Origin: Candidatus Woesebacteria bacterium RBG_16_42_24
Lineage (GTDB): Bacteria; Patescibacteriota; Microgenomatia; UBA8517
NCBI GenBank assembly: GCA_001792115.1
Contig: MGFX01000002.1
Span: forward strand, 4,965 to 68,964
Reading direction: 5' to 3'
Length of the DNA: 64,000 nt
Shown here: positions 1,766 through 62,310 of the stretch, one piece after another
Layout of the letters: the number at the start of each line of letters is the position of its first letter
Numbering within the stretch: the stretch's first letter is position 1
Translations under genes and position numbers: made by a program
Notes under the pieces: model-generated
Told to the model about the DNA's origin: nothing
The model's database searches: none
What the model saw: the letters and a program-made list of their open reading frames with translations, nothing else

Positions 1766-2851
1766 GTGAAGTTAAAAATCTTACTGCCCATATTCTTTGC
1801 GACTTTTGTCCTCGCATTTTTGACGGGATATTTTGCCTCCATGTTCTCCAAGATATTCATTAAGAAAGTATCAATACAGGAAGAATCTCCCCCAATTACC
1901 ATTGACGATAAAGCACTCGACGTTTTGCTCATTGGCTACGGCGGAGCGGGCCACGATGGAGGAACCCTTAGCGACACGCTAATAGTGGTGCATGCTGGCT
2001 TTGAAAACAAAAAAATAACATTTATTTCGGTCCCCCGCGACCTTTGGGTTCCAATTCCTTACGATTGGGACAATCTTCAGAATTACAAAATTAATATGGC
2101 CCATGCAATCGGGGTTGACGACCTAAGATACGCCAATAAAAAACCTGAGTTTAGAAAAGAAGCCGGCGGGGGAAATATGGCCAAGCATGTAGTGGGCCTT
2201 GTAACGGGATTGACTATCGAGAACTTTGTCTCGGTTAATTTTGAGGGGCTAGTCAAGGTTATTGACCTATTGGGAGGGGTGGAAGTAGATGTACCCGTTG
2301 CCTTCGACGATTATCTTTATCCAGTAAAGGGTAAAGAAAACGAAACCTGCGGATTTAGCGGCGAGGAAATCGCCGAGTTCCACGCAAGCTATACCGGATT
2401 TGACCTTGAAAAGCAGTTTACTTGCCGCTATGAGCACCTGCATTTTGATAAAGGGAAAACTGTTATGAATGGGGACAGCGCCCTAAAATTCGTTCGCTCA
2501 AGACACTCCAGCCAGCACGGGGGAGACTTTGCCCGCTCAGAAAGACAATACGCACTCCTCACCGGAATTAAAAATAAAGCGGTTTCACTCGAAGCTGCAA
2601 AAAAACTCGCAAGTATTCTTGATGAGATTTCAGATAGTGTCCGCACCGATTTAACCCTGGAACAAATTACAAGCTTCCGAGGGCTCCTCTTAAAAGAGGG
2701 GGAGTATAAAGTTTCTTCAGTTTATTTGACCGAACAAAACGTATTAAATGCGGGCAGAAGCTCCGACGGCCAATTCATTTTGGTGCCAAAAGAGGGAATA
2801 AATAAATGGGGTAAAATTCAGGAGTATATTGCAACCGAGCTTGCAAAATAG
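1766..2851 (+). CDS. LytR-CpsA-Psr (LCP) family cell-envelope polymer phosphotransferase
   Basis: N-terminal TM segment, then LLIGYGGAGHDGGTLSDTLIVVH...FISVPRDLWV...NFEGLVKVIDLLGGVEVDV, which are hallmark LCP motifs. Confidence 0.85.
   Translation: MKLKILLPIFFATFVLAFLTGYFASMFSKIFIKKVSIQEESPPITIDDKALDVLLIGYGGAGHDGGTLSDTLIVVHAGFENKKITFISVPRDLWVPIPYDWDNLQNYKINMAHAIGVDDLRYANKKPEFRKEAGGGNMAKHVVGLVTGLTIENFVSVNFEGLVKVIDLLGGVEVDVPVAFDDYLYPVKGKENETCGFSGEEIAEFHASYTGFDLEKQFTCRYEHLHFDKGKTVMNGDSALKFVRSRHSSQHGGDFARSERQYALLTGIKNKAVSLEAAKKLASILDEISDSVRTDLTLEQITSFRGLLLKEGEYKVSSVYLTEQNVLNAGRSSDGQFILVPKEGINKWGKIQEYIATELAK
2812..2851 (+). repeat. 40-bp direct repeat, copy A. It forms the functional 3' end of the LCP gene. 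Partner copy at 5183..5222.
   Basis: taaaattcaggagtatattgcaaccgagcttgcaaaatag versus taaaattcaagagtatattgcaaccgagcttgcaaagtaa is 37/40 identical. Both copies read KIQEYIATELAK*, and the differences are synonymous or stop-to-stop. Confidence 0.7.
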
Positions 2852-4195: not shown

Positions 4196-4516
4196 TCACT
4201 TTGTGCCTCTCGCGATTTCTCTGTAGTAAATTACTCGTATTCCTTTATATGTTTCTCCGTAAGCAAAAGAGGGAAGAGATGTCTCTATTCCAATAACTTC
4301 AACAAATTTTCCCACATCTTTTTTCCTTAGATTACCAACGACATCGGCACCACCAACATGATATTCCGTTCCGCACCCTTCAGGTATCATACAATTCGTT
4401 ACCCTGGATAGAACACCCTGCCTCACTATTATCAATCCTGAATTAAGGATAAAGATTACAAAAGTAATGAGAAGCAATCCGGGAATCAAAATAAACAGTA
4501 TGAATTTTTTGGACAT
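4196..4516 (-). CDS. Hypothetical small membrane-anchored protein (106 aa)
   Basis: ORF with an N-terminal hydrophobic helix (FILFILIPGLLLITFVIFIL) followed by a roughly 75-aa soluble region. No recognisable family. Confidence 0.4.
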   Translation of the reverse strand: MSKKFILFILIPGLLLITFVIFILNSGLIIVRQGVLSRVTNCMIPEGCGTEYHVGGADVVGNLRKKDVGKFVEVIGIETSLPSFAYGETYKGIRVIYYREIARGTK

Positions 4517-4604
4517 AAAACTATTTTATCACGTCGACAGTGTTTGATTCTCTGTGGGGGTCATACGCACTCTGAAGATAATTGAAGTTTCAGGCTAAAT
4601 ATCT

Positions 4605-4633
4605 GCAGGGGCTAGTGAACTTTGTCAGGAACT
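4605..4633 (+). repeat. 29-bp direct repeat, copy 2, upstream of the small ORF 4196..4516
   Basis: See the copy at 4118-4146. Both lie in the 5' regions of consecutive minus-strand genes. Confidence 0.5.
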
Positions 4634-4659
4634 GGTATAGATACGAGAGAGTTAAAATA

Positions 4660-5127
4660 TCACTCGGAGGCATCTTGTCTAGCTAAATCAACAGGCTTTA
4701 CATCTCTAACTACCTGCTCCAGAAAAGTTTGGTCTTTTTCTTTTAGTTCTATTCCTGAATGCATATCCCCAAGAAGTTTTCCTACACGCTCTACTGTTTC
4801 CTCCAAATACCTAGCAATTTCTCTTAAATCTTCTGGATGTTCTCTAGCCATCCACGCTTGCCAGGATTCATAAGCTTTTATTGCAGATTCTTCTCCTGAC
4901 ATTGCTGCTGAAGCCAGCTTTAAACCGACAATTGACTTCCTCCTTAATCCAAATGCACGCTCGAATAAATCACTGCTTTCCATTATATGCATTATACCAT
5001 CTGAGGCTATTTTGCAGGCCTTAATAGCCACACTTCGAACTCTCTGGCATAAAATAAGCTCTTTTGAGATTGATGACATCCTCCGCGGACTAAAAGTCCG
5101 CGGTTTCCTTTCAAAGGAGGATGACAT
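4660..5127 (-). CDS. Hypothetical alpha-helical protein. The N-terminus and start codon are supplied by the repeat element, so the true start is uncertain (alternative M at 5079).
   Basis: The first 16 codons, MSSSFERKPRTFSPRR, are encoded by repeat-element copy 1, and a stop lies immediately upstream. The segment CQRVRSVAIKACKIASDG weakly resembles helix 2 of four-helix-bundle proteins found in 23S rRNA intervening sequences. Confidence 0.35.
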   Translation of the reverse strand: MSSSFERKPRTFSPRRMSSISKELILCQRVRSVAIKACKIASDGIMHIMESSDLFERAFGLRRKSIVGLKLASAAMSGEESAIKAYESWQAWMAREHPEDLREIARYLEETVERVGKLLGDMHSGIELKEKDQTFLEQVVRDVKPVDLARQDASE

Positions 5128-5177
5128 ATCAGTTTCAATTCATCCGCGAATTAATAATTCGCGGTGTTCTTGAAATC
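5069..5177 (+). repeat. Structured interspersed repeat element, copy 1 (about 109 nt), containing two GC-stem hairpins
   Basis: tgatgacatcctcc-[ccgcggac taaaa gtccgcgg]-tttcctttcaaaggaggatgacatatcagtttcaattcatcc-[ccgcgaatta a taattcgcgg]-tgttcttgaaatc. This aligns with copies at 56901-57004 and 51770-51894 (the latter reverse-complemented). Confidence 0.7.
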
Positions 5178-5182
5178 TGTTA

Positions 5183-5222
5183 TAAAATTCAAGAGTATAT
5201 TGCAACCGAGCTTGCAAAGTAA
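5183..5222 (+). repeat. 40-bp direct repeat, copy B. Displaced relic of the lytR 3' end.
   Basis: See copy A. There is no upstream ORF: the sequence tga lies in frame 9 nt upstream. Confidence 0.7.
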
Positions 5223-25974: not shown

Positions 25975-26810
25975 TTAACTTGCTTTCTTAGAAGTACAAG
26001 TTCCAAGATTCCCAAAAATATTCCAAAATCATAAATCAGCTTAAAAACTACGAAGGCTGGTTGCCAATGAACTACCGATTTGAAAATCCCCACGAGTAGA
26101 GAGACGGGAAATGAGGCTCTTAAAAGTCCCACGCAGTAACCAAGAAATCCAAGTTTATACTTTCTTTTTCCAACCCAACGAGCGTGGCCAAAAACTTCTG
26201 TCAGGCCCGAGGGGTTTTTATGATAAAAAATTGCGCCTTTAGCAGAATCGGCCATATATCCCAGCTTTTCATACAGGCTATAATCGTCTGTATAGCCTCC
26301 TGGGGTAAACCCTCCTACCTTATCAAATTCGGATTTAAGAATCGCTCTAAAAACCTTTTGCTTATCGGGATAGTATTTGGGATGCCTTCTTCTTTCTTCC
26401 CAATTTTGGTTTATGTTCCAACACCTTGCCCAAACGTTTTCCCAGTTACTCACGTATTCGTATTTTGAAAAAGTTCCCTTAGTCTTTCCAGAAAGAATTG
26501 GCTTAACTAGATTTTTCAGAAAATTTTTGTCGAAAGTCATGTCAGCGTCGACAAAAACTAAAATCTCGCCATTTGCATGTTCTGCACCCAAATTCCTCGC
26601 CGCACCCGGCCCCTTATGTTGCTCTCGCAACAATTTAGGGTTTAGGGTTTTGGGGTTAGAATTTCCGACAACACCGGGAGTGTTGTCGGTAGATCCATCG
26701 TCGACAACTATTATTTCGAAATCGTGATATGTTTGTTTGGACAGAGATTCTAAACACTCTCCTATCACGTCTTCTTCGTTGTATGTGGGAATAATTACTG
26801 TAACTTTCAT
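25971..26810 (-). CDS. Glycosyltransferase family 2 with C-terminal TM helices
   Basis: VTVIIPTYNEEDVIGECLESLSKQTYHDFEIIVVDDGSTDNT...ILVFVDADMTF. Confidence 0.8.
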   Translation of the reverse strand: MKVTVIIPTYNEEDVIGECLESLSKQTYHDFEIIVVDDGSTDNTPGVVGNSNPKTLNPKLLREQHKGPGAARNLGAEHANGEILVFVDADMTFDKNFLKNLVKPILSGKTKGTFSKYEYVSNWENVWARCWNINQNWEERRRHPKYYPDKQKVFRAILKSEFDKVGGFTPGGYTDDYSLYEKLGYMADSAKGAIFYHKNPSGLTEVFGHARWVGKRKYKLGFLGYCVGLLRASFPVSLLVGIFKSVVHWQPAFVVFKLIYDFGIFLGILELVLLRKQVK

Positions 26811-35704: not shown

Positions 35705-35788
35705 AGATAATAATATCCAAACTCAAAATTCTAAACTTTAATTAAGTCTAAAATTCAAATTTGAAATTTCCAAATTAAATATTTGAAA

Positions 35789-37090
35789 CTATTTTGAAAT
35801 TAGAGTTTTGGGTTTTGGATTTACCCAATAGTGCCTAAAAACTATTATCCAGGAATAAACCGCAAGGATTGTGTTTACCACAAAAAAGGCTACCAGAGGT
35901 CCAAAAGCCCCAAGTTTAGGAATAAGGAGGATATTTATTAAAAAAATCGCGGCTAACTGGAAAAAGGAAAAGTAGCCGATATAAACCGGTCTTTTAATCG
36001 AGTAGATTATGGCAGTTACGGGAGGCGTCGCCAAAACAAAAGGGATAAGCGAGCCAACAAACGCCCTAAAAATTGGAACCGCTTCTTCATACTTTTGCCC
36101 AAAAAGAAATGTTACAAAAGGTCTGGCAATAATCATCCAAACTACCATCCCAAAAACAATTACTAACGTCGCGAGTGTTGCTTTTATAATGTAGACTTTT
36201 TCCTTGTGCCTATCTTCAAAGGAGGAAAGTCTTGGAGCCATCACATTTGAAAGGCTTGAGGTAAGAACCGCTATAAAAAGGGCCAGACGTTGAGCAATTG
36301 AATATTGGCCCGTTATTGTAGCCCCCGACATAACAGCCAACATTTGTACGTCAAGCCTGCCCGAGATCGCAGAAACCACCCTATTTACTCCAACCCATCC
36401 GGAAAAACGAAGAAGTTTTGAGTAAACTTCTTTTGGAGTATCCACCTTCAGAAAGGACGGCCCGAGCAGTAATACACCCAAAACTGCTGCGGCTAGACCT
36501 CCCACTGTAAAAGAAAGAAACGAGGTGTTAAGGGTAAGAACGCCTGCAACAAAAAAAACGTAAACCGACAAAGCTCTAACAATGCCTATTGTAAGATCAA
36601 CCGAAACTGAGGCGATAAAGCGCTTGTAAGCCTGAAGTGCCGTAGGAAAATAAGCCCAAAAAAGAAGCCCGAAAGAAAGAGCCACACTCCAATAAATCAC
36701 TGACATATCTTCGCTTGCAAGAAGCTTCTTTACCGAAGGTGCAAATGCCAAAACAAGAAGAGATAGAAGCGATGTGGCTGCAACTCTTACAACAAGTGAC
36801 GCCTTCAAAAATCTATGAGAGTTTTTTGTGTCCCCCTTGGCCTGGAAATTCGCAACAAAAGTAACAAGCCCCGCGGAGATCCCGACATCGGCGAGGGAAG
36901 AGATGATAGCTATCAGGTTATTGACGGCAGAAAAAACTCCGAAATCACCGACTGATAATCCTCTCGCAATAATTAAGGTAAACAAAAAACCCAGAAAGGC
37001 AGAGGCCACGTTTCCGGCAAATAGAACGTACGTATCTTTTGCTGACTGGGATTTCGCAAGTCCGACAGCCCTATCAATATAAGCCCTCAT
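35789..37090 (-). CDS. Polysaccharide/oligosaccharide flippase (Wzx-like, MOP superfamily)
   Basis: A 12-14 TM protein with GNVASAFLGFLFTLIIARGLSVGDFGVFSAVNNLIAIISSLADVGISAGL, typical of PST-family flippases. Confidence 0.7.
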   Translation of the reverse strand: MRAYIDRAVGLAKSQSAKDTYVLFAGNVASAFLGFLFTLIIARGLSVGDFGVFSAVNNLIAIISSLADVGISAGLVTFVANFQAKGDTKNSHRFLKASLVVRVAATSLLSLLVLAFAPSVKKLLASEDMSVIYWSVALSFGLLFWAYFPTALQAYKRFIASVSVDLTIGIVRALSVYVFFVAGVLTLNTSFLSFTVGGLAAAVLGVLLLGPSFLKVDTPKEVYSKLLRFSGWVGVNRVVSAISGRLDVQMLAVMSGATITGQYSIAQRLALFIAVLTSSLSNVMAPRLSSFEDRHKEKVYIIKATLATLVIVFGMVVWMIIARPFVTFLFGQKYEEAVPIFRAFVGSLIPFVLATPPVTAIIYSIKRPVYIGYFSFFQLAAIFLINILLIPKLGAFGPLVAFFVVNTILAVYSWIIVFRHYWVNPKPKTLISK

Positions 37091-37170
37091 TAGACAAATT
37101 GTAGCTTAGCCGAAGATTATTTTCTAATTTATGTCGACGACTTAGCTGATTAGGTATTAGAAATTAGTAA

Positions 37171-37914
37171 TTAGGAATTGTTACGATACTTGAAGCCTGT
37201 GCCCTTTTTAAGGAGTAACTTAACCCCCTCCTTCAAATAGTAAAAAGGGCTATCCAGATAAAAAAGAACAGATCCTCTTTTTAACTTGCTTTTATTTCTT
37301 TTAACAAAACCTTTGTATTCATGAATTAATTCATGAAAGTGAAGGGTCCGAACTTCCTTATGGTCAATTTTGTCTTCCCAATAATACACAAACTCCTCCT
37401 CTCCGCTCCAATGGGTAAAATGGAAGTTGCTTGAGTAAAGAAGTGGGTAGTTTTTTGGGACAACGTAGATCACCTCACCCTTTTCATAGAATAACCATTT
37501 ATGATGAGCCTGTCCCGGCACTCTTCTTGAACCTGTAAGCCAGTCAGTGAAGTTTATGTGGGAAAAAACCATATCGGCGCCCATTGAAGGTGTAACAATA
37601 AGTCCTCTTTTTGCAACCCTAGACATCTCTTCGATTGCCAAAAATGGATAGCTCAAATCCTCGAGCGTGTGTGAACATATACAAAAATCGAATTCTTTAT
37701 CAGCAAAGGGCAGTTTATCCCTAGTTACATCTACTTTGACGAAATTTTTAGCTCTAAGTTTAGTTGGACCATATGGCGCTTCTTCTGGACTGATAATATC
37801 TACGAGCGTGTCCACCCGGATTTCGTCTCTTTGTCTCATGCTTCCTCCAATATCCAAAATTCTATCTTTGGGTTTTATTTTGAAGCGGGAAATTACCTCT
37901 CTATCGCTAATCAT
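37171..37914 (-). CDS. Class I SAM-dependent methyltransferase
   Basis: ILDIGGSMRQ...FDFCICSHTLEDLSYPFLAIEEMSRVAKRGLIVTPS. Overlaps the upstream membrane gene by 4 nt. Confidence 0.6.
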   Translation of the reverse strand: MISDREVISRFKIKPKDRILDIGGSMRQRDEIRVDTLVDIISPEEAPYGPTKLRAKNFVKVDVTRDKLPFADKEFDFCICSHTLEDLSYPFLAIEEMSRVAKRGLIVTPSMGADMVFSHINFTDWLTGSRRVPGQAHHKWLFYEKGEVIYVVPKNYPLLYSSNFHFTHWSGEEEFVYYWEDKIDHKEVRTLHFHELIHEYKGFVKRNKSKLKRGSVLFYLDSPFYYLKEGVKLLLKKGTGFKYRNNS

Positions 37915-49948: not shown

Positions 49949-50631
49949 AGTTTAACTATCATAAGATGAGTTGGGAATATTCCTATACTCCTAAATTTTA
50001 TGATTTTTATTCCTTTTTTATACGGCAAGACCTCTTTTATTTCTTCGACGCCTAAAGGGTTAAAGTTATTAATATCGGCCCAGAAGGTTTTACCTAATAG
50101 TTTAGCTATTTTACTAAAATATTTATGAGGGAACCAATGAATAAAGAATAATCCAGAATGAGGATCATAGAAAAAATATTTGTTGGGTGTTGTAATAAAA
50201 ACTTTTTTACCGACTCTAAAAATTTCTTTCAAAAATATTCTTTGTTCAACTGACGAACCGACATGCTCCAGTGTCGCCCAGGAAACAACCACATCAAAAG
50301 CATTATTCCGAAAAGGAAGTTTTTTGTTTGCATAGACTTTAATAAATTTAATCTTTGAATATTTCCTTCTGAGCCCCGTTATATCTTCTATGGATAAAGC
50401 CGTAAGCTTATCTGAAAAAGGATATCTTTTTTCAAAATAGTTGGAATCTACTAAAGTCTCGTCTTTCCTCACACCAACATCTAGGACTTTTTCTGTACGT
50501 TTAGGTTTAAGGAGTTTCCAGAATATTCTAAACTGACGCTCTCTAACAATAAGAGATGTATGGCTCAACAGTTTTTGTGGTAAAGTGATCTTATTCTCCG
50601 GGTTGGTAGACCAATCAACGCCTGCTATCAT
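49945..50631 (-). CDS. Class I SAM-dependent methyltransferase
   Basis: VLDVGVRKDE...FDVVVSWATLEHVGSSVEQRIFLKEIFRVGKKVFITTPN. Confidence 0.65.
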   Translation of the reverse strand: MIAGVDWSTNPENKITLPQKLLSHTSLIVRERQFRIFWKLLKPKRTEKVLDVGVRKDETLVDSNYFEKRYPFSDKLTALSIEDITGLRRKYSKIKFIKVYANKKLPFRNNAFDVVVSWATLEHVGSSVEQRIFLKEIFRVGKKVFITTPNKYFFYDPHSGLFFIHWFPHKYFSKIAKLLGKTFWADINNFNPLGVEEIKEVLPYKKGIKIIKFRSIGIFPTHLMIVKL

Positions 50632-51692
50632 GCTTTTTCCGGAAGTGTGTTAACTAGATGTGTCTTAATTGTTTCAATTAAAAAAACCCAAATATCAAAA
50701 ATTGCAGCCTCTCCAACGATAAAAAGCTCTATTTCCGGCTGAAAAATCCCAAGTACTATAATAAACGCTGCTAAAAATGTTATTGCCCCCCCCAATAATA
50801 CTAATGGCAATCTCATTACAAATACTACCATCGTGCTTTTTCTATTATCTATTGCGAAATTTAGCAATTTTGCTGCAAGAGTTGATAGGAAGAGGGCAAA
50901 ACTCAACTGCACAAATAATAAAGAGATAGAAAGGGAACTATTAAAAACTAATAATGCAAGAAGTAATAAAATTATTGTCGGTAAAAATAAAAAGTTAGGT
51001 TTGATAAGTAATATTGCCTTAAGATGTCTCCAACCGTCGGTCCACCTAGCCAGGTGAGGGACAGACCCTCTTCTATCTCTGTAAAAATTAATCGGAACCT
51101 CGGCATACTCACCTCCTATTAAAGCTGTTTTGAGTATTAGTTCACTCGCCCATTCCATGCCGGAATTCCTCATGTGTAGTTTCATGTAGAAATCTTTTTT
51201 GATAAGCCGCATCCCCGAATTACAGTCTGTCGTTTTAATACCATACATTATTCTAATAAGCCAAGTAAGGAAAGGGGTACCGAAATATCTATTTAAATAG
51301 GGCATTGCCCCCTCGAATATTCTACCTTTATATCTCGATCCCAAAATTAGATCGTAGTGTCCCTCTGCAAATTTTAGAAATTTCCTAATCTCCATAAAAT
51401 CATAGCTTAAATCTGCATCTGCAAAAAATACGTAGTCTCCCTTTGCTGCAATTATTCCCCAATGAAGTGCTGCTCCATAACCCCTGACAGGAACCCTCAC
51501 AAGTCGAGCTTTTTGGTAAGATTTGATAAGCTCTATAGATTTATCTGTACTCCCATTATCGGCAACTAATATTTCAAAATTTGTTATTCCATATTTTTTA
51601 GCAGCCTTATTGGCTTTATCTATAACCCTAAGAATTGTTCCAGCTTCATTTAAACAGGGTATAAGAAAGGAGATTGATTTATTATTTTTCAT
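50628..51692 (-). CDS. GT2 polyprenyl-phosphate sugar synthase-like (DPM1/GtrB/ArnC type) with C-terminal TM helices
   Basis: ISFLIPCLNEAGTILRVIDKANKAAKKYGITNFEILVADNGSTDKS...YVFFADADLSYDF followed by about 4 TM helices. Confidence 0.7.
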   Translation of the reverse strand: MKNNKSISFLIPCLNEAGTILRVIDKANKAAKKYGITNFEILVADNGSTDKSIELIKSYQKARLVRVPVRGYGAALHWGIIAAKGDYVFFADADLSYDFMEIRKFLKFAEGHYDLILGSRYKGRIFEGAMPYLNRYFGTPFLTWLIRIMYGIKTTDCNSGMRLIKKDFYMKLHMRNSGMEWASELILKTALIGGEYAEVPINFYRDRRGSVPHLARWTDGWRHLKAILLIKPNFLFLPTIILLLLALLVFNSSLSISLLFVQLSFALFLSTLAAKLLNFAIDNRKSTMVVFVMRLPLVLLGGAITFLAAFIIVLGIFQPEIELFIVGEAAIFDIWVFLIETIKTHLVNTLPEKA

Positions 51693-51769
51693 AAAATTCT
51701 TGTTTCATTTTCATTGAATTTTTCAAGAGGGGTCTCCTCTTTTTCTTTAGACATAATGGAATTATAGCA

Positions 51770-51894
51770 GCATTCGAGAAGACTGCCGATCTTCGGTCGG
51801 GAGATGAACCTGCCTGCCGGCAAGGCTGGTTGAACGCTGATATGTCATCCTCCTTTAGAGGGAACCCCATTCAAAGCGGGGAGGATGTCATAAA
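51770..51894 (-). repeat. Structured interspersed repeat element, copy 3 (about 125 nt, minus orientation), in the intergenic region
   Basis: The reverse complement reads tttatgacatcctccccgctttgaatggggttccctctaaaggaggatgacatatcagcgttcaacc...ttctcgaatgc, which aligns end to end with copy 2. Confidence 0.7.
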
Positions 51895-51933: not shown

Positions 51934-53430
51934 TTAATATCCCAGAAATTGTCGCGATTCAATCGGCCAGGTATTTCTTCCGAAATCACCCTTAAAACGT
52001 TTGTATTCCGCTGACAATTTGTTATTCCAGAAAACCTTAAAATAGTTTTGGTCAGATAAGGTTACCTTTAAAATCTCCGTCGGGCTCCAGGGTAAATCAT
52101 TGTCTTCGTCGGTATCGTAAAAGGCTATGGTTTTATATTTCTCAAGAGTCTCGGCGTTTTCGAGAAAATAATTGTGAACCCTTTTGGCAGTTTGGGCACC
52201 CTTAGTAATCCAATTGGTTTCGGCCGTTAAGTTCAGTGTCAAAACTGAAAGGATCAGCCAGATAGCTAAAAAACTGAATATGGCTAGTGGTTTGTGATTA
52301 GTGACTAGTGAATAAGAAATGAAGACTACTACCCCCATGAGGGGAAGGGTGAGATAGAAGGTGAATTTGTGAAGAGGAAGAAAAAGGACGGGAAGAAGGG
52401 TAATTAGGAACCAAGAGGTTCCAAAAATTACTAATTTTAAATTTCTAATTTCTAATTTTCTTATGCTAGAAGAAAAAAACTTGTAAACAGCAGCTGACAA
52501 CAGAAACAACTCCAATAAAAACAAGGTTAAAATAGGAATAATTTGGCTGGACCAATACTTAAAAAGGTTGGGGTTGAAGTGAAAGCCGGGGCCAACAAAA
52601 TCAACAAGCATTTCAGGCAAATTAAATGACCAAAGTCCATACCAGCCGAGGGTATTTACCGCCCTTTTAACTGAGAAATCCCAAACATAGCTATCCCCCG
52701 TGGCAAAGCCATAATAAGCAAACCTAAAGTAAAAATAAAAAATCAAAATTAAAAAATAGGGAGCGGTACTAGCAATTAATCGATTGATCGGTAGGGGAGC
52801 AGATTTCTTAGTTAACTTGAAAAAAATATATATTAGAAACAGACAGAGTGGCAAAACGACGGCGGTTTCTTTGGATAATAAACTTAAGACAAAAAACAAA
52901 AGACTTAATAGTAAATAATTTGTTGACGACTTATGCAGAAATTTGATGAAAGATAAAACCGAAAGAAGGAAAAATAAAGCTAGCCCAAGTTCTTGAAATG
53001 CGCCCAAGAAATAAAGATGGCCGAAATGAGTAGCGGAGGTAGCATATAGGAAAGCTGCGAGGAGAGAAATGTGATTGGTGAATGGTGATTTGTGATCGTT
53101 AAGTAATAACAAACAGAACTTGTAAACGAGAAAGATAACCGCGAAGAAAATGAAAAACGAAATTACATGAAGACCTAATGGATTTAAGTTAAAAATTTTC
53201 CGAGCCAGAAAATAGAAAACCTGGGTAGTAAGTGGTCTATACATTCCCAATCCGTCGGGGCCTCTAGTCAGATTAAAAAAGTTTAGAAATTCCTTTACAG
53301 AGTTTGCTTGGGAAATTTTTAGAAGAAAAAAGTCGTCGTTGGTGTAAAAAGTAGACAACGAGGGAAGAAAAAGAAAAAAAGAAATTAAGAAAATAAGAAA
53401 TAAATACTTGGTAGACAAAGAAAATTTCAT
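51934..53430 (-). CDS. GT-C fold membrane glycosyltransferase-like (PMT/ArnT-like)
   Basis: N-proximal FYTNDDFFLLKISQ DD motif, about 12 TMs. Contains (AATTTCT)n heptamer repeats at about 52439-52458 and GTGATT-type repeats at 52291-52316 and 53071-53098. Confidence 0.5.
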   Translation of the reverse strand: MKFSLSTKYLFLIFLISFFLFLPSLSTFYTNDDFFLLKISQANSVKEFLNFFNLTRGPDGLGMYRPLTTQVFYFLARKIFNLNPLGLHVISFFIFFAVIFLVYKFCLLLLNDHKSPFTNHISLLAAFLYATSATHFGHLYFLGAFQELGLALFFLLSVLSFIKFLHKSSTNYLLLSLLFFVLSLLSKETAVVLPLCLFLIYIFFKLTKKSAPLPINRLIASTAPYFLILIFYFYFRFAYYGFATGDSYVWDFSVKRAVNTLGWYGLWSFNLPEMLVDFVGPGFHFNPNLFKYWSSQIIPILTLFLLELFLLSAAVYKFFSSSIRKLEIRNLKLVIFGTSWFLITLLPVLFLPLHKFTFYLTLPLMGVVVFISYSLVTNHKPLAIFSFLAIWLILSVLTLNLTAETNWITKGAQTAKRVHNYFLENAETLEKYKTIAFYDTDEDNDLPWSPTEILKVTLSDQNYFKVFWNNKLSAEYKRFKGDFGRNTWPIESRQFLGY

Positions 53431-54277: not shown

Positions 54278-54658
54278 TTACTTATTGAATTTTTGAATTT
54301 GTTTGGAGTTTAGAGTTTTGGATTTAGAATTTATTAATCCTTTTAGGGCTTCTTGTCTAATAAAACGCTCTAGTTTTTTTTCAATTCTTTTGGTTCTTAC
54401 ATAAGCTATCGCGACCATTGTAATCACCAAGACGAAGCCTCCCAGAACCAGAAGATCCAGAAGTCTTGAAATGAAAAAGGTCTGTGCAAAGGCTCGAAGC
54501 GTATCCGGGAAAAGAACCATGAATGAAGCCGCGCCCCATGCAGAAACCCATATTGATAGTTCAACCCTGTTAATTTCCTTTCGTTTGAAATTAACATAGG
54601 CAAAGTAAATCATTACAAGAGCAAAAACTACGGCCAATATTTGAAGACCGAATATCAT
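54278..54658 (-). CDS. Small membrane protein, DUF2304-like (often paired with a GT2 polyprenyl-phosphate glycosyltransferase)
   Basis: 126 aa with 3-4 TMs, and a 4-nt overlap with the downstream GT2. I recall the family pairing but cannot verify it here. Confidence 0.4.
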   Translation of the reverse strand: MIFGLQILAVVFALVMIYFAYVNFKRKEINRVELSIWVSAWGAASFMVLFPDTLRAFAQTFFISRLLDLLVLGGFVLVITMVAIAYVRTKRIEKKLERFIRQEALKGLINSKSKTLNSKQIQKFNK

Positions 54659-56072: not shown

Positions 56073-57386
56073 CTAGGACACCCAATAGCCTCGCGAAAAG
56101 AGGGCGAGGGAAATTGCGGCTAAGAATAGTAATGTCAAATAAACCAACCCTTTAACCAACTTTGATTTTTTGTTAAGCCAAAGGGCCATAAGAATATAGG
56201 CGGGGAAAAGAATAAGAACATAGCGTGGGAAAGAGGAGAAACTTCCGGAAAGGGGCGGGATTAGGTATCCCGCCGCTAGAAACAAGGAATAGCCAAGTCT
56301 CAATTTAAAAAACGACCATACACCAAGGATTCCAAATATAATAGCCGAAGCTATTTCAAGATAGGTAGTAAATACTATCGGGAAATAATTGTAATTAAGG
56401 CTGGGAAGAACCTTGAAAAAATATCTATAAAAAACTTGCGGGAGAAGAATTAGAGTACTTGAGCGCTGCTGCCCAAAAATCGAAACATTATGAACGAATT
56501 CAAGCGGGTCCCCGGTTATCCTATATAAATAGTACATATAGGCCGCCAGGCCTAGAGGGATAAGAAGCAGAGAAACAATTTTTTTAAGGTTGACGGCAGT
56601 GATTAGTGAATACCCGCCAGCAACGCTTGAAGCGTAGCTTCTACGGGCTGGGTGATTGGTGAATGGTGACTTCTTGTAAAAATACTCGACTGCAATTGCC
56701 GGAACAAGTGCCAATGCGGTAATTCGGGTTGCGGTTGCAAAAGCTCCAAGAACTCCTGCAAAAATCCAGCTCCTTTTTCTTGCAAAGTAAAACGACCAAA
56801 CGATTAAGGCCAGTGTTAAGCTCTCCGTATAAAAAGCCCCGAAATAAAAAGACGTTGGAAAAAGGATTAATAAAAGAAGAGTCATCTTTGCAATATTTTC
56901 TTTATGACGTCCTCCCCGCCTTAAAAGGCGGGGTTTCCCTAAGGAGGACGACATATCAGCGTTCAATTCATCCCCACCCTCCGGGGCGAGGTTTTCTTGA
57001 ATGCTGTTATAATCAAGCCGTATAAGTTTCCACAAACCAATTAAACCTACAAGGAATGATAAGTTAGAAATAAGAAGTCCGGTAAAAGCTATCGTAATAT
57101 ATTCGGGATTTATCAAAGACGCGGCGATACGGGTGACAAGCGGGAAAAGGGGAAAAAAGAAATAGGTCAAAGGCTGATACCCTTGGTGGGCAATCGCCGC
57201 ATAGTGCTCCCCGTCAAAATTCAGCCAAGACCAAAAATAAGGATTTTTAAGATAGTTTGACAAACCTCCTCCAAGAAAATCCTTTTGAAAAGGAAAAAGG
57301 CCAGCCGCTAAAAAAACTACTCCAAAAAGAAAGAGTCTCCAGGTGACAAAACTTCCCAAAATAAATCTCCAATTATCGCCTTTCAC
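56073..57386 (-). CDS. Polytopic membrane protein (GT-C/DUF2029-like) carrying two in-frame repeat insertions
   Basis: A hydrophobic protein interrupted by the hydrophilic stretch NSIQENLAPEGGDELNADMSSSLGKPRLLRRGGRHKENIAKM, encoded by repeat-element copy 2. A second segment, SPFTNHPARRSYASSVAGGYSLITAVN, is encoded between GTGATT-type direct repeats. Confidence 0.45.
   Translation of the reverse strand: MKGDNWRFILGSFVTWRLFLFGVVFLAAGLFPFQKDFLGGGLSNYLKNPYFWSWLNFDGEHYAAIAHQGYQPLTYFFFPLFPLVTRIAASLINPEYITIAFTGLLISNLSFLVGLIGLWKLIRLDYNSIQENLAPEGGDELNADMSSSLGKPRLLRRGGRHKENIAKMTLLLLILFPTSFYFGAFYTESLTLALIVWSFYFARKRSWIFAGVLGAFATATRITALALVPAIAVEYFYKKSPFTNHPARRSYASSVAGGYSLITAVNLKKIVSLLLIPLGLAAYMYYLYRITGDPLEFVHNVSIFGQQRSSTLILLPQVFYRYFFKVLPSLNYNYFPIVFTTYLEIASAIIFGILGVWSFFKLRLGYSLFLAAGYLIPPLSGSFSSFPRYVLILFPAYILMALWLNKKSKLVKGLVYLTLLFLAAISLALFSRGYWVS
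56599..56669 (+). repeat. Pair of GTGATTRGTGAAT(GGTGA) direct repeats flanking a ~40-nt insert, inside ORF 56073..57386
   Basis: gtgattagtgaata at 56599-56612 and gtgattggtgaatggtga at 56652-56669. The 18-mer also occurs identically at 53071-53088, in a different gene. Confidence 0.55.
56901..57004 (+). repeat. Structured interspersed repeat element, copy 2 (about 104 nt), inserted in frame within ORF 56073..57386
   Basis: tttatgacgtcctcc-[ccccgcc ttaaaa ggcgggg]-tttccctaaggaggacgacatatcagcgttcaattcatcc...gttttcttgaatgc. Confidence 0.7.
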
Positions 57387-57428: not shown

Positions 57429-58511
57429 CTAGCCTAGAACTTTTTTGTAAATTTCTAACGTTTCCCTGGCGGTTTTCTCCCACGAATAATTTTTAACCAA
57501 TACCTTACCTTTTTCCACCAGCTGATCCCTTAGTTCCCCGTCATTAAAAACCTGGGATATTTTATCTGCTATATCCTTGGGGTTTTTAGGGTCGGCAAAA
57601 AGACATGCTGGCTCACCAATTTCAACCAAGGCCTGAGTCTTGCTTGCAACCACAGGACATTCGCTTGCAAAAGCCTCAAGTACAGGAAGCCCAAATCCTT
57701 CATAAAAAGAAGGCTGGCAATAAAGAGTCGCTAAATTATAAAGACCAACTAAATCTTCATCCGGAACAAATCCTAATCTAATGACTTCTTTATCGTCTCC
57801 GTACTTTTCAAGAAGTTTAATAAGTGGTTTATTTTCCGTGTGAGTCTCGTCAAAATCAGCCGAAGCCGCCTGCTTACCGGCTATCACAAGTGGAATTCTT
57901 ACAATTTTGCAAGCTTGGATAAGTCCCAACAAATTTTTATTGTAATTAACGTCACCAACATATAATACAAAACGCTCCGGAAGACCGTAACGTTTTTGAA
58001 TTTCCAATTTCCAATGGTTCGACGGGCTCACCATCCTGAGCGAAGTCGAAGGATTTCCAATCTCCAATTTCCTGAAAATTTCGCGTGGAGCCTCGTGTAT
58101 TACTGATATTTTTTCTTCAGGTATTCCTAAAAATCTTATAATGTCTTTTTTCGACGTCTCCGATACCGCGATAATTGCATCTATCTTAGAGATCAGAAAT
58201 TTTTGAATAATAAATCTCAATTTGCCCTTAATTCCCGGCGGATAGTGCTCAGGGTATATCAGATAAATTAGGTCGTGGATGGTAATAACAGATGGAATGG
58301 ATTTGGTTAAGGGAACACTAAAAAAATAAGGGTGAAATTTTTGATAATGGACGATATCGTACTTCGTTAAATCGTTCTTGGAAGCATCGACCAAATCCAA
58401 CTCAACACCGTCTAATTTTTTGAGATGTTTAACTAGCTCTTTAGTATAAAAACCTATCCCCCTCCCCACATCACCTTCCGACATGGGTCCTGTATCAATT
58501 GCTATCCTCAT
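57429..58511 (-). CDS. Glycosyltransferase family 4, with a short insertion flanked by direct repeats
   Basis: FVLYVGDVNYNKNLLGLIQA...QPSFYEGFGLPVLEAFASECPVVASKTQALVEI. The segment IGNPSTSLRMVSPSNHWKLE is encoded between TTTCCAATTTCCAAT at 58001-58015 and TTTCCAATCTCCAATTTCC at 58054-58072. Confidence 0.8.
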   Translation of the reverse strand: MRIAIDTGPMSEGDVGRGIGFYTKELVKHLKKLDGVELDLVDASKNDLTKYDIVHYQKFHPYFFSVPLTKSIPSVITIHDLIYLIYPEHYPPGIKGKLRFIIQKFLISKIDAIIAVSETSKKDIIRFLGIPEEKISVIHEAPREIFRKLEIGNPSTSLRMVSPSNHWKLEIQKRYGLPERFVLYVGDVNYNKNLLGLIQACKIVRIPLVIAGKQAASADFDETHTENKPLIKLLEKYGDDKEVIRLGFVPDEDLVGLYNLATLYCQPSFYEGFGLPVLEAFASECPVVASKTQALVEIGEPACLFADPKNPKDIADKISQVFNDGELRDQLVEKGKVLVKNYSWEKTARETLEIYKKVLG

Positions 58512-60648: not shown

Positions 60649-62310
60649 CTAATTAGCTACAGCCTCGAAATAAAGATATCCGTTTGTCCCGTATATCCTT
60701 TTAACAATATTTGCCTCATTCGGTATTTCCTCGTCGGTTCCTACAATTAAACTCCCGGGGTTTTGGGGTTTAATAGTGTCAAAATCTATCGGCACAAATT
60801 CGTATTTGCCAAAACTTCTGACTGTTGAAAAGCCATATTTATCTTTTGCCGTAAGCGTATGTTCCAACTGAAACTTTTGGGGTGGGTATTTTAAATAAAA
60901 AAGGAAAAGAATATAAGGCTGGTCGTAGCGATCAGTAACTATTATCTTCTGGTTCGCTTTCTCCTTAGTATAGCTTACCAACTCCTTTACCCCATACTGC
61001 GATGAGAAGGGAAACTCCTTAGCCATATGGACCCAATACATATGCTGATACCTGGCAAAACCCCAGATTATCAAGACCCCAAGCGCCAAATAACCCCATA
61101 ATCGAATTTTCCTTAGATTGTTAAGCCATGAAAGGGTTGTCATAAGACCATATGCACTGATTACAGTTAATGGAATCGCCATATTTTGGGCCCTTAGGGC
61201 GTGGGGAGACTGAAAAGTCAACGCCGAAGCGGTTGGAGCCAACAAAAGCCACACTAAAATCACTCCCCAACCCTGCCTGCCGGCAGGCAGGCTTTTAGAA
61301 CTCTTGGCAATTGCCAAAAGACCGACAATCAAGAAAAGTATGTCAAATAAATACATCTGCCCCGTTTCGGGAACCTTATCCCTCTCAATGGCGTCTCCCG
61401 TAAGGAAAAGGAATTCTCCCCAGAAATGCTGCGAATAGTTTTGGGCAAAGGCCAATGAGTAATTAACCACCTTGTTGTGAATGGCTTTAGGGACAAAAGC
61501 CAAATAGTCTTGGTGCTCTCCGCGCTGCTCGTTAATCCTCGAAAGAGGCCCGGGATCCGCAAAAAGGCCGACCCCTGCAACCCTTGAACCCACCTCCCCT
61601 TTCGCAATATCAAAACCCAAGGGGGCAAGTAAAATTAATGCTGCAATTCCTGAAATAATAAAGGATTTAATGTCTGGACGGATTTCTTTACGGTAAATAA
61701 GACCCAAACCAATGACTAGTAAGGGCACAACTACCCTTGCGGCGTGGTAAGTATATAGGGACAGTACAAAGCTGATAGTACATAGGGCATAGTAGTTTGG
61801 ATTTTTAAGCCCTTTCAAATACAGTAAAAGACCAAGGCTAATAAAAAAAGTGGCTACATTTACTTCCCAACCGCCTCTCGAGAAGTGTATGTGCCAGGGC
61901 GAGATTGCAAGGAAAAGCGCTGCAAACTCGCCAATTTCCAATTTCCAATTTCCAATTTCCAATTTTTTATCCGGAAACAGTTCTCTACACAGAAAATAAA
62001 CGACCAGAACGGTGGCAACGCCAAAGAGGGCTCCCGGAATTCGGACTGCGAGCTCACTTAGTCCTAATACTTTTACAAATGGCAAAACTAAATAGAAATA
62101 GAGACCAGGTTTGTAATCGTTGAACGACTGAAAATGGATTGGCCAGGCATTTCCATGCTCGTCTTTGCCAGTTTCGATTAGAGAGTAGGCATTATAGCCA
62201 ATTGCCGCCTCATCGGCATTAAGTGCTGGATAGGAACCAAGTCTCCAAAACCGTAAAAAAGAGGCTAACAGCAATATTAAAAACAGTAGTAACTTTCTTT
62301 TTCTTAACAT
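60649..62310 (-). CDS. GT-C fold glycosyltransferase, PMT_2 family (bacterial dolichyl/polyprenyl-phosphate-mannose protein-mannosyltransferase-like)
   Basis: FLRFWRLGSYPALNADEAAIGYNAYSLIETGKDEHGNAWP, an N-proximal DE motif. Contains (CCAATTT)4 at 61931-61958 encoding KLEIGNWKLEIG, and the 20-bp palindrome at 61274-61293. Confidence 0.65.
   Translation of the reverse strand: MLRKRKLLLFLILLLASFLRFWRLGSYPALNADEAAIGYNAYSLIETGKDEHGNAWPIHFQSFNDYKPGLYFYLVLPFVKVLGLSELAVRIPGALFGVATVLVVYFLCRELFPDKKLEIGNWKLEIGEFAALFLAISPWHIHFSRGGWEVNVATFFISLGLLLYLKGLKNPNYYALCTISFVLSLYTYHAARVVVPLLVIGLGLIYRKEIRPDIKSFIISGIAALILLAPLGFDIAKGEVGSRVAGVGLFADPGPLSRINEQRGEHQDYLAFVPKAIHNKVVNYSLAFAQNYSQHFWGEFLFLTGDAIERDKVPETGQMYLFDILFLIVGLLAIAKSSKSLPAGRQGWGVILVWLLLAPTASALTFQSPHALRAQNMAIPLTVISAYGLMTTLSWLNNLRKIRLWGYLALGVLIIWGFARYQHMYWVHMAKEFPFSSQYGVKELVSYTKEKANQKIIVTDRYDQPYILFLFYLKYPPQKFQLEHTLTAKDKYGFSTVRSFGKYEFVPIDFDTIKPQNPGSLIVGTDEEIPNEANIVKRIYGTNGYLYFEAVAN
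61274..61293 (+). repeat. 20-bp perfect palindrome CCTGCCTGCCGGCAGGCAGG inside the PMT_2 ORF. A near-copy lies at 51811-51826 in the intergenic region.
   Basis: It is its own reverse complement. 51809-51826 reads acctgcctgccggcaagg, a 16/17 match, immediately adjacent to repeat-element copy 3. Confidence 0.6.
61931..61958 (+). repeat. Heptanucleotide tandem repeat (CCAATTT)x4 within a coding sequence
   Basis: ccaatttccaatttccaatttccaattt. A unit length of 7 is not a multiple of 3, so a change of one unit would frameshift the PMT_2 gene. Confidence 0.8.

What the first reader, a model, noticed from the sequence alone, without database searches (positions are those of the whole stretch)
56901..57004. 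Structured palindromic repeat element inserted in frame inside a membrane-protein gene (RPE-like)
A roughly 105-125-nt element occurs three times, at 5069-5177, at 56901-57004 and (reverse-complemented) at 51770-51894. Its parts are a 5' arm ATGACRTCCTCC, hairpin 1, then TTTCCCT..AAGGAGGAYGACATATCAGYKTTCAA, a variable GC hairpin 2, and finally TTYTYGAATGC. Hairpin 1 differs in sequence between copies but keeps a GC stem and an A-rich loop (ccgcggac/taaaa, ccccgcc/ttaaaa, cccc/gctttgaat). These compensatory changes suggest selection on structure. Copy 2 sits inside ORF 56073..57386 without breaking the frame, adding about 35 hydrophilic residues (ENLAPEGGDELNADMSSSLGKPRLLRRGGRHKE) to an otherwise hydrophobic protein. 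Copy 1 supplies the ATG and first 16 codons (MSSSFERKPRTFSPRR) of ORF 4660..5127. In-frame, peptide-adding palindromic elements are known from Rickettsia (RPEs) but, as far as I know, not from CPR-like genomes.
Basis: seen in the sequence. Interest (0 to 1): 0.8.

Follow-up and report, generated by a model that had tools for sequence, protein, structure and literature searches.

The report
Tiny IS200/IS605-type transposon inside genes
The repeat is a roughly 105-base, gene-less relative of the IS200/IS605 "peel-and-paste" transposons that is spread through Microgenomates (CPR) genomes; it sometimes lands in frame inside essential genes and adds 35-36 amino acids without destroying them.

Summary
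Three copies lie in the window, and a covariance model finds 64 copies in about 25 Microgenomates/Patescibacteria genomes. Four helices are kept by compensatory changes. Copy 2 is an exact 105-nt (35-aa) insertion in a GT-C mannosyltransferase gene, and all homologues lack it. Other copies sit in frame in MurC and ArgRS.

"RPE-like" describes the behaviour but not the identity. The anatomy matches a non-autonomous IS200/IS605 element (a PATE):
- It has no terminal inverted repeats.
- A host tetranucleotide, TTAT, is conserved on one flank only.
- The element ends in TCAT, 10 nt past a hairpin.
- The 4 nt before each hairpin (AAAA, GAAA) pair with TTAT and TCAT by the IS608 rule.
- Five of the six copies flanked by TCAT have the matching guide change A to G (p = 5e-6).
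- Orientation follows GC skew (44 of 58, p = 2e-4).
- The reverse strand reproducibly gives sub-threshold matches to Rfam HgcC, an RNA family linked in the literature to IS1341-type tnpB genes and to a PATE-derived RNA.

No transposase was found in the DNA available. This is a new member of a known kind, with moderate interest.

The parts
56904..57008 (-). Copy 2: the 105-nt element itself. Its top strand (IS orientation) is the window's minus strand, which is the sense strand of the host gene. It reads 5'-AACAGCATTCAAG...GGAGGACGTCAT-3'.
   Evidence: Net insertion defined by the protein alignment and by DNA comparison with two empty homologous sites. CM match at 117.8 bits.
57009..57012 (-). 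Host target tetranucleotide of copy 2 (TAM, or C_L). It reads TTAT on the minus strand (ATAA on plus), lies 5' of the left end and is not part of the element.
   Evidence: Empty sites carry GATTATAAAG, and the first two T residues can only be host DNA. TTAT flanks 50 of 64 copies.
56957..57008 (-). Left-end domain of copy 2. It holds the outer stem P3 (56957-56966 pairing with 56997-57006), the hairpin IP_L (P4, 56972-56991) and the guide G_L (AAAA on the minus strand, 56992-56995), which lies directly 5' of the hairpin foot. There are 17 nt between the TAM and the foot.
   Evidence: Sequence, fold, covariation in P3 and P4, guide table.
56904..56954 (-). Right-end domain of copy 2. It holds the outer stem P1 (56904-56915 pairing with 56943-56954), the hairpin IP_R (P2, 56914-56933), the guide G_R (GAAA on the minus strand, 56934-56937) and the terminal cleavage motif (TEM, or C_R), TCAT on the minus strand (56904-56907). 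The element ends 10 nt 3' of the IP_R foot.
   Evidence: Sequence, covariation. TEM is TCAT in 61 of 64 copies and G_R is GAAA in 42 of 64.
56073..57386 (-). Host gene: a GT-C / Gpi18-like mannosyltransferase of 437 aa. The element encodes residues 126-160, in a loop between two transmembrane helices.
   Evidence: Homologues are about 383 aa and lack the segment. In the AlphaFold model, pLDDT is below 50 for residues 128-154, between confident helices.
5073..5181 (-). Copy 1 (109 nt, top strand is minus). Its TAM, TTAT on the minus strand, is at 5182-5185. It abuts a 39-nt duplicate of the 3' end of the LCP gene (5183-5221).
   Evidence: CM match at 116 bits, sequence, repeat D10.
51766..51891 (+). 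Copy 3 (126 nt, top strand is plus). It has an extra hairpin in the left-end domain and is the most degenerate copy. Its TAM, TTAT, is at 51762-51765. It is intergenic, between the GT-C gene 51934..53430 and the GT2 gene 50628..51692.
   Evidence: CM match at 76.4 bits, sequence, ORFs.

Best explanation
The element is a non-autonomous, protein-less derivative of an IS200/IS605-family insertion sequence (a PATE-type element) made of a left-end domain fused to a right-end domain.

Proposed mechanism (inferred). A Y1 HUH transposase (TnpA), supplied in trans, excises the top strand as single-stranded DNA. It recognises the two subterminal hairpins by shape. It finds the cleavage sites through pairing of the flank TTAT with the internal guide AAAA, and of the terminal TCAT with the guide GAAA. 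It then pastes the strand 3' of a TTAT in single-stranded DNA at the replication fork, without target duplication.

Why copies survive in genes. The commonest lengths are multiples of three (105, 108, 111 nt), and the top-strand frame that reads ..DELxxDMSSS.. usually has no stop codon. Copies that land in a loop-coding part of a gene can therefore survive as 35-36-aa insertions. Copy 2 in the mannosyltransferase gene is one such case.

Shown here: the family, its structure and covariation, the exact insertion, the empty sites, the one-sided flank, the flank-guide covariation, and the skew bias.

Inferred, not shown: the transposase, the single-stranded intermediate, and that the altered proteins are made and work.
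For: 1. Family size. 58 stretches carry the exact core, about 55 of them true copies, all in Microgenomates/Patescibacteria MAGs. The CM gives 64 matches.
2. No terminal inverted repeats. The two halves fold separately, and the stems covary.
3. One-sided flank. In IS orientation, TTAT precedes the element in 50 of 64 copies. The other flank is only weakly A/T-biased.
4. Empty sites. Two mannosyltransferase homologues and a MurC at 87% amino-acid identity lack the element. These give net insertions of 105 and 108 nt, and for copy 2 they show that the TT of TTAT is host DNA.
5. IS608 rule. For IS608, C_L is TTAC with guide AAAG (PMC3201880); C_R TCAA is from the same paper, but its guide GAAT and the pairing pattern are from my memory. 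Here C_L is TTAT with AAAA and C_R is TCAT with GAAA. Both guides lie directly 5' of the hairpin feet, and the element ends 10 nt past the foot of IP_R.
6. Flank-guide covariation. Five of the six copies flanked by TCAT have a guide beginning with G (GAAA or GATA). Only 1 of 58 others does (Fisher p = 4.7e-6). The flank is not carried by the element, so these are independent insertions.
7. Strand bias. The top strand lies on the G-rich strand in 44 of 58 copies (p = 2e-4). Bias relative to gene direction is weak (36:23, p = 0.12). This fits the lagging-strand-template preference of the family (PMC5027513).
8. HgcC. Seven of eight copies tested match Rfam RF00062 over the full model on the top strand, at 26-34 bits with E from 5e-4 to 0.045 in a 64-kb search. 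The literature links HgcC to RNAs from IS1341-type tnpB genes and to a PATE-derived RNA (PMC4615843 and PMC4247193).
9. Recent activity. Copies within one genome (LBWP01) are 89-98% identical.
Against: - No tnpA or tnpB gene, and no full-length IS with these ends, was found. This covers about 500 kb of window and loci (crude motif filter; recurrent-ORF clustering) and a metagenome scan designed to skip the fused junction.
- The HgcC matches are below Rfam's gathering score of 50 bits.
- The absence of a target duplication cannot be proved, because TTAT|AA and TCAT|AA leave a 4-nt junction ambiguity.
- G-U versus A-C counts show no strand asymmetry once one column is set aside (28 against 30).
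- The outer stems P1 and P3 are not part of the IS608 paradigm.
- GC skew over 8 kb is only a proxy for replication direction and is partly confounded with gene orientation.
- Three CTAT flanks, one TTAC flank and one TCAT flank (L056) lack a compensating guide change.
Confidence: 0.8

Rival explanations
1. It is the same PATE, but it also serves as a gene for an omega-RNA-like guide scaffold. It would be transcribed on the top strand and used in trans by a TnpB-type nuclease. This would explain the conserved unpaired junctions and the extra stems P1 and P3.
For: Reproducible full-length similarity to HgcC. The literature links HgcC to RNAs transcribed from tnpB genes and to a PATE-derived RNA. 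PATEs are reported to often encode omega-RNAs that act in trans (PMC10055086). The junction sequences GATGAATTGAAC and CCTCCTTTAGAGGAAAC are more conserved than the hairpins.
Against: No tnpB was seen in any locus. No transcription data are available. There is no strand asymmetry in wobble pairs. The scores are below the family threshold.
Confidence: 0.3
2. It is a classical MITE derived from a DDE transposon. It would be cut and pasted as double-stranded DNA into TTATAA-like sites, with a 2-4-bp target duplication (AT or TTAT).
For: The reconstructed target TWAT|AAW is nearly palindromic. The junctions of copy 2 and of the MurC copy can be read as a 4-nt repeat.
Against: There are no terminal inverted repeats. 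The 4-mer on the left differs from the one on the right in more than half of the copies. Neither the flank-guide covariation nor the strand bias is expected for a DDE element.
Confidence: 0.05
3. It is a stationary structured RNA gene or cis-regulatory element (terminator, promoter cassette or riboswitch-like leader) that is conserved in place, not a mobile element.
For: Strong covariation. A GC hairpin followed by a T-run, and a TGnTATAAT-like end facing outward. In about 11 of 52 copies a gene starts within 30 nt of that end.
Against: The element is present or absent at orthologous sites. Copies lie inside unrelated genes. It occurs in both orientations relative to neighbouring genes. Near-identical copies sit at unrelated loci in one genome.
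Confidence: 0.03
4. It is homologous to the Rickettsia palindromic elements (RPEs), that is, the same family and not merely the same behaviour.
For: Same size class, palindromic, inserted in frame with a conserved encoded peptide (PMC10969869).
Against: No sequence comparison with RPEs could be made here. All hits of the exact 19-nt core pattern lie in Patescibacteria, apart from three chance matches. The mechanism of RPE mobility is unknown, so the label explains nothing further.
Confidence: 0.05

Closest known systems
PATEs (palindrome-associated transposable elements): protein-less left-end plus right-end derivatives of IS200/IS605 / IS1341-type elements. First named in Haloquadratum (PMC3119063) and also seen in Geobacillus stearothermophilus (PMC10055086).
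   Same: Fused left and right ends, no ORF, no inverted repeats, subterminal hairpins, a TAM on one flank, guide-TAM and guide-TEM pairing with covariation, and many copies per genome.
   Different: The host is CPR/Microgenomates bacteria with reduced genomes. There are extra outer stems (P1, P3) around each hairpin. Several copies are translated in frame within housekeeping genes. No cognate autonomous IS has been identified.
IS608 (Helicobacter pylori), the mechanistic paradigm of the family (PMC3201880, PMC5027513).
   Same: The target tetranucleotide lies outside the element on the left (TTAC in IS608, TTAT here). The terminal tetranucleotide lies inside the element on the right (TCAA in IS608, TCAT here), with cleavage 10 nt past the hairpin foot here against the 10 nt reported for IS608. 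The 4-nt guides lie 5' of each hairpin foot (AAAG and GAAT in IS608, AAAA and GAAA here). Both show a lagging-strand-template bias.
   Different: IS608 carries tnpA and tnpB, while this element carries nothing. The left spacing is 17 nt rather than 19 nt. The left and right hairpins differ from each other and vary between subfamilies.
HgcC RNA family (Rfam RF00062) of hyperthermophilic and halophilic archaea.
   Same: Shared blocks GAUGAxxUGAAC and CCCCGCC-UUUA-GGCGGGG-AGGAxGUCA in the same order and on the same (top) strand. The literature links HgcC to IS1341-type transposase genes and to a PATE-derived RNA.
   Different: Scores of 26-34 bits are below the 50-bit gathering score. The hosts here are bacterial. 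Transcription is untested.
Rickettsia palindromic elements (RPEs). From memory, also the MJRE palindromic repeats of Methanocaldococcus jannaschii (Suyama, Lathe and Bork 2005), which the library does not hold.
   Same: Palindromic repeats of 100-150 bp that insert in frame into unrelated genes and add a conserved peptide without inactivating them.
   Different: No mechanism is known for RPEs, whereas here the IS200/IS605 anatomy can be read from the sequence. No sequence relationship was tested.
bcr1-bcr3 repeats of the Bacillus cereus group (PMC6542083, PMC6199540).
   Same: Small structured interspersed repeats without a transposase, with mobility tied to a TTTAT motif. The 5-nt flank here is most often TTTAT or ATTAT.
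   Different: bcr1 is described as duplicating TTTAT, and a site-specific recombination mechanism has been proposed for it. No sequence comparison was made.

Membership tests
IS200/IS605-derived non-autonomous element (PATE) | No terminal inverted repeats; the left and right ends differ. | tested here: met
   The ends are 5'-AACAGCATTC... and ...GGAGGATGTCAT-3', and the two halves fold independently.
IS200/IS605-derived non-autonomous element (PATE) | Subterminal hairpins at both ends that are recognised by shape. | tested here: met
   P2 and P4 keep 94% pairing with many compensatory changes, while their sequences differ between subfamilies.
IS200/IS605-derived non-autonomous element (PATE) | Insertion 3' of a specific tetra- or pentanucleotide that stays outside the element, on the left flank only. 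| tested here: met
   TTAT flanks 50 of 64 copies (TCAT 6, CTAT 3). Its host origin is shown by empty sites. The right flank is only weakly biased.
IS200/IS605-derived non-autonomous element (PATE) | No target-site duplication. | tested here: inconclusive
   The net insertions are 105 and 108 nt, with a 4-nt junction ambiguity caused by TTAT|AA against TCAT|AA. A fixed 4-nt duplication is contradicted by unequal flanks in most copies.
IS200/IS605-derived non-autonomous element (PATE) | Guide tetranucleotides 5' of each hairpin foot pair with the left target and the right terminal motif, and covary with them. | tested here: met
   AAAA pairs with TTAT and GAAA with TCAT. Five of six TCAT-flanked copies carry a G-first guide against 1 of 58 others, p = 4.7e-6.
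IS200/IS605-derived non-autonomous element (PATE) | [quoted passage not shown] | tested here: met
   The top strand lies on the G-rich strand in 44 of 58 copies, p = 2e-4. GC skew is a proxy only.
IS200/IS605-derived non-autonomous element (PATE) | A cognate autonomous IS encoding a Y1 TnpA with matching ends in the same genomes. | not testable with these tools
   Only 8-kb stretches of the MAGs could be read. None was seen there or in the metagenome pattern scan.
HgcC RNA (Rfam RF00062) | Score at or above the curated gathering threshold (50 bits). | tested here: not met
   26.5-33.7 bits in 7 of 8 copies, over the full model length, always on the same strand. The element is related but is not a member by Rfam's rule.
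HgcC RNA (Rfam RF00062) | Expressed as a discrete small RNA. | not testable with these tools
   No transcript data are available.
TnpB omega-RNA / right-end RNA | Overlaps or follows a tnpB gene, or a tnpB gene is present in the genome to use it in trans. | tested here: inconclusive
   No tnpB-like ORF was found in about 500 kb of loci by a crude zinc-finger filter. Whole genomes could not be scanned.
Rickettsia palindromic elements (RPE) | Palindromic repeat inserted in frame in unrelated genes, encoding a conserved peptide. | tested here: met
   In-frame copies in the GT-C gene, MurC and ArgRS are checked against homologues or solved structures. CapA-like and UvrC copies rest on ORF continuity only. 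Four of the five share the frame reading ..DELxxDMSSS...
Rickettsia palindromic elements (RPE) | Sequence homology to the RPE-1 to RPE-10 families. | not tested
Classical MITE (DDE-transposon derivative) | Terminal inverted repeats and a fixed-length target-site duplication. | tested here: not met
   There are no inverted repeats, and the left and right flanking 4-mers differ in most copies.
REP / REPIN mobilised by RAYT | Palindromes of 20-40 nt with a conserved 5' GTAG-type tetranucleotide, often in inverted pairs. | tested here: not met
   The unit is 102-153 nt, with two different hairpin domains and TAM/TEM architecture.

The most novel reading that the evidence does not exclude
The copies are not only transposon relics. 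They would be working guide-RNA scaffold genes (orphan omega-RNAs related to archaeal HgcC) used in trans by a TnpB-like nuclease in CPR bacteria. The same 105 nt would then serve at once as transposon ends, an RNA scaffold and, in some genes, 35 codons of an essential protein.
Probability: 0.2. Interest if true: 0.7.

Novelty: new member of a known kind. Interest (0 to 1): 0.5.

Why it matters
- It gives a mechanistic identity to a "palindromic in-frame repeat", a class that for Rickettsia RPEs has stayed unexplained. The same reading could be tried on RPEs, on the MJRE repeats and on bcr1.
- It indicates that single-strand "peel-and-paste" transposition has been active recently in CPR bacteria with streamlined genomes. 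At three copies per 64 kb in this window, the element is a noticeable part of the genome.
- The G-guide subfamily that sits next to TCAT instead of TTAT looks like a natural retargeting experiment of the kind done by mutagenesis on IS608.
- In-frame copies in MurC, ArgRS and a mannosyltransferase show one way that proteins in reduced genomes acquire new surface loops.
- For annotation, ORF callers will extend or start genes inside these elements, as with ORF 4660..5127.

Tried and rejected
- Rfam at gathering thresholds found nothing in the window, and there are no tRNAs.
- Hammerhead and other ribozyme ideas were dropped because the core motifs are not conserved and Rfam gives no hit.
- An integron attC site and an Xer/dif-like site were considered from memory and dropped, because the copies are dispersed and lie inside genes.
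- A wobble-pair test for the functional strand gave 46 G-U against 30 A-C. This becomes 28 against 30 without one column, so it is uninformative.
- Two candidates for an autonomous copy turned out to be truncated elements. L035 is half an element upstream of an rpoD-like gene. L024 is an element missing its 5' arm at the end of a histidine-phosphatase gene. L034:7871, L047:1814 and L015:5095 are longer or rearranged copies without ORFs.
- All-against-all clustering of ORFs from the loci found no recurrent transposase, only Mur ligases, PBPs and glycosyltransferases.
- A motif filter for TnpA- and TnpB-like ORFs gave 0 candidates.
- The viral contig scan gave 0 hits.
- A metagenome scan with GTTTCCN{2,7}AAGGAGGAYGACATB, meant to catch right ends not fused to a left end, gave 35 hits. 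Of these, 34 were chance Shine-Dalgarno-plus-ATG sites and one was a mutated PATE.
- The idea that the 3' TGnTATAAT is a designed outward promoter was demoted. It is largely the TAM plus an A/T-rich flank read on the other strand, and only copy 3 scored as promoter-like.
- A fixed 4-bp or TA target duplication was rejected from the flank statistics.
Full report

Yes. The 19-nt core AAGGAGGAYGACATATCAG occurs exactly three times in the window, and no shuffle out of 100 reached three matches. A covariance model built later from 44 copies, run over the whole window without filters, finds these three and nothing else: 5070-5186 (+), 56901-57013 (+) and 51761-51894 (-). Copies 1 and 2 fold far better than shuffled sequence (z from -5.5 to -8 on either strand). 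Copy 3 is degenerate.

The window comes from Candidatus Woesebacteria bacterium RBG_16_42_24, judged by a 100% identical protein.

**2. Is copy 2 an insertion in a gene?**

ORF 56073..57386 (-) encodes a 437-aa GT-C / Gpi18-like mannosyltransferase. Its homologues are about 383 aa. In a 13-sequence alignment every homologue reads LDY|KEN..., where the window protein has LDY-NSIQENLAPEGGDELNADMSSSLGKPRLLRRGGRH-KEN. That is exactly 35 residues, or 105 nt, and conserved residues continue on both sides.

The DNA of two homologues shows the empty site GATTATAAAGA. The window has GATTATAA[CAGC...GTCATAA]AGA. An AlphaFold model (mean pLDDT 62, pTM 0.72) places the segment (pLDDT below 50 for residues 128-154) between two confident helices, so it is a loop.

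**3. How large is the family?**

An exact-pattern scan of one genome per species found 58 stretches. About 55 are true copies and three are chance hits in unrelated phyla. All true copies are in Woesebacteria, Blackburnbacteria, one Nealsonbacteria and other Patescibacteria MAGs. Several records are titled "uncultured Gammaproteobacteria", but one of them carries a MurC whose nearest relatives are Microgenomates.

The model finds 64 matches in 51 sources, including copies that lack the exact core. None was found in viral contigs. Copies within one genome can be 89-98% identical (LBWP01). The three window copies are only 49-69% alike, and each is closer to copies in other genomes. I found no description of such elements in CPR genomes in the held literature.

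**4. What is the structure?**

There are two domains.
- Stem P1 (ATGAC.RTCCTCC pairing with GGAGGAY.GACAT), which encloses a variable GC hairpin, P2.
- Stem P3 (CAGNNTTCAA pairing with TTGAANNCTG), which encloses a second variable hairpin, P4.

On 44 sequences, 94.8% of cells are paired and 18 pairs show changes on both sides. The covariation score is 0.318, against 0.114 for shuffles (0 of 500 as high) and at most 0.069 when the partners are slid. Wobble pairs do not identify a strand. There are 46 G-U against 30 A-C, but 18 of the G-U pairs lie in one column.

**5. How does it behave in genomes?**

Most copies are intergenic and lie in either orientation relative to their neighbours. Five of 52 copies lie inside long ORFs. 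Three of these were checked against relatives or solved structures:
- The window mannosyltransferase gene.
- MurC in L021. A 36-aa insert is absent from eight homologues, including one at 87% amino-acid identity. At DNA level the relative reads TTTT-G-TAAAAT, where L021 has TTTT[ATAACAG...GTCA]TAAAAT.
- Arginyl-tRNA synthetase in L049. The alignment to solved structures breaks exactly around the insert.

A CapA-like gene and UvrC are supported by ORF continuity only. Four of the five are read in the same frame, giving ..DEL(N/S)xDMSSSxxGxP..GGxHK.

Across 59 copies, 35 have lengths that are multiples of three. The frame reading DMSSS is open over the whole element in 35 of 57 copies, against about 15% for shuffled frames. 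This is suggestive only, because the copies are related by descent.

**6. What identifies the family?**

The two share GAUGAxxUGAAC and CCCCGCC-UUUA-GGCGGGG-AGGAxGUCA. In a realistic 64-kb search, seven of eight copies hit HgcC and no other family consistently, at 26-34 bits with E from 5e-4 to 0.045. This is below the 50-bit gathering score, so the element is related but is not a member by Rfam's rule. In the literature, some HgcC RNAs are transcribed from within transposase genes in Thermococcus (PMC4247193). HgcC also shares a tetraloop motif with the transcripts at the 3' end of IS1341-type tnpB genes and with a PATE-derived RNA (PMC4615843).

*Anatomy.* I therefore turned the element around into "IS orientation". 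It then reads:

5'-[TTAT] | AACAGCATTCAAG-AAAA-[P4]-GATGAATTGAACGCTG-AT-ATGTCATCCTCCTTTAGAG-GAAA-[P2]-AGGATG-TCAT | -3'

For IS608 the published anatomy is as follows (PMC3201880). The target TTAC lies outside the element, 19 nt 5' of the left hairpin foot. The terminal TCAA lies inside the element, 10 nt 3' of the right hairpin foot. Both are read by 4-nt guides immediately 5' of the hairpin feet; the paper names the left guide AAAG. The right guide GAAT, and the pairing pattern (positions 1 and 2 crossed, position 4 Watson-Crick, position 3 non-canonical), are from my memory.

Here the corresponding values are TTAT with AAAA (17 nt from the foot) and TCAT with GAAA (the element ends 10 nt past the foot). 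They follow the same pairing pattern. TTAT flanks 50 of 64 copies, TCAT ends 61 of 64, and GAAA is the right guide in 42 of 64. The empty sites show that the first two T residues of TTAT are host DNA.

*Flank-guide covariation.* Six copies are flanked by TCAT instead of TTAT. Five of them (L045, L001:1960, L032:2297, L010:4212 and L038:4707, all at different loci) have the left guide GAAA or GATA. Only 1 of 58 other copies has a guide that begins with G (Fisher p = 4.7e-6). The flank is not carried along by the element, so these are independent insertions of a retargeted subfamily. Covariation of this kind was reported for active Geobacillus elements (PMC10055086).

**7. Is there a strand bias?**

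The majority coding strand predicts orientation only weakly (36:23, p = 0.12). Among discordant cases, skew wins 11 to 2.

By the usual rule that the leading strand is G-rich, the top strand lies on the lagging-strand template. This is the known preference of IS608, ISDra2 and other members of the family (PMC5027513). It is an inference, because the replication origins are unknown. In the window, copies 1 and 2 follow the rule and the degenerate copy 3 does not.

**8. What is missing?**

No transposase was found. Truncated or rearranged copies contain no ORFs. ORF clustering and a motif filter over about 500 kb found nothing resembling a transposase. The single metagenome scan, designed to skip the fused junction, returned chance ribosome-binding sites plus one mutated PATE. 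Whole MAGs could not be scanned. The absence of a target duplication also cannot be proved, because of the 4-nt junction ambiguity.

**9. Verdict**

The interpretation "RPE-like" is right about behaviour. The element is best explained as a PATE-type, non-autonomous IS200/IS605 derivative moved as single-stranded DNA by a TnpA supplied in trans (confidence about 0.8).

Hairpin covariation is then what a shape-reading transposase would produce, so it is not by itself evidence for a small RNA. An additional omega-RNA-like role is possible (about 0.2-0.3) and would explain the conserved junctions and the outer stems.

The kind is known. The host group, the outer stems and the in-frame copies in essential genes are the new aspects.

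Noticed in passing
window 2812-2850 and 5183-5221 (with 2851-5182 between them): A 39-nt direct repeat (95% identical) that is the 3' end of the LCP gene 1766..2851. Copy 1 of the element abuts the second repeat exactly at its TAM. The 2.3 kb between the repeats holds three minus-strand ORFs (372, 106 and 155 aa) with no Pfam match. It looks like an inserted island or a capture of flanking DNA.
   Followed up: partly
window about 56600-56660 (inside ORF 56073..57386) and about 58000-58060 (inside ORF 57429..58511): Two other short GC-rich hairpins sit in frame in genes and are flanked by short direct repeats. The first encodes PARRSYASSVAGG between TTCACCAATCAC and TTCACTAATCAC; it is absent from most homologues and has low pLDDT. 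The second encodes PSTSLRMVSPSN between GGAAATTGGAGATTGGAAAT and ATTGGAAATTGGAAAT. They may represent a second kind of in-frame insert.
   Followed up: partly
window 52294-52314, 53071-53091, 56652-56672: A 21-nt repeat, GTGATTGGTGAATGGTGA(C/T)TT, occurs in two different GT-C membrane-protein genes (encoding KSPFTNH). It is up to 95% identical at DNA level.
   Followed up: no
window 4118-4146 and 4605-4633: A 29-nt repeat (93% identical), GCAGGGACTGGTGAACTTTGTCAGGAACT, lies upstream of two minus-strand ORFs inside the putative island.
   Followed up: no
window 26616-26665, 35774-35823, 54284-54333, 37150-37179, 52433-52456, 57994-58015, 61935-61956: AT-rich short-period repeats of the type TTAGAAATTAGAAAT and TTTGGGTTTTGGATTT recur in spacers and within some genes.
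   Followed up: no
L012 7070-7279 and 7290-7405; L051 5435-5553 and 5734-7436: One element copy lies directly beside a glmS ribozyme. Another lies about 180 nt upstream of a 16S rRNA gene.
   Followed up: no
L034 4869-5014, L040 1831-1942, L041 7669-7783: In three different genomes a copy sits immediately upstream of a class A penicillin-binding-protein gene, and in two of them between tandem PBP genes. This could be a shared old insertion or a hot spot.
   Followed up: partly
loci from CAYTZB01, CAYIKF01, CAYREZ01, CAYTOP01, CAYISM01 and CAZOVJ01: These MAG records are titled "uncultured Gammaproteobacteria" but carry this element. For L021, the MurC has Microgenomates as its nearest relatives, so the titles are probably wrong.
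   Followed up: partly
window 4660..5127 (-): Both candidate start codons of this 155-aa ORF (5127 and 5079) lie inside copy 1, one in each ATGTCAT arm of stem P1. Gene callers are therefore likely to mis-start genes next to these elements.
   Followed up: partly
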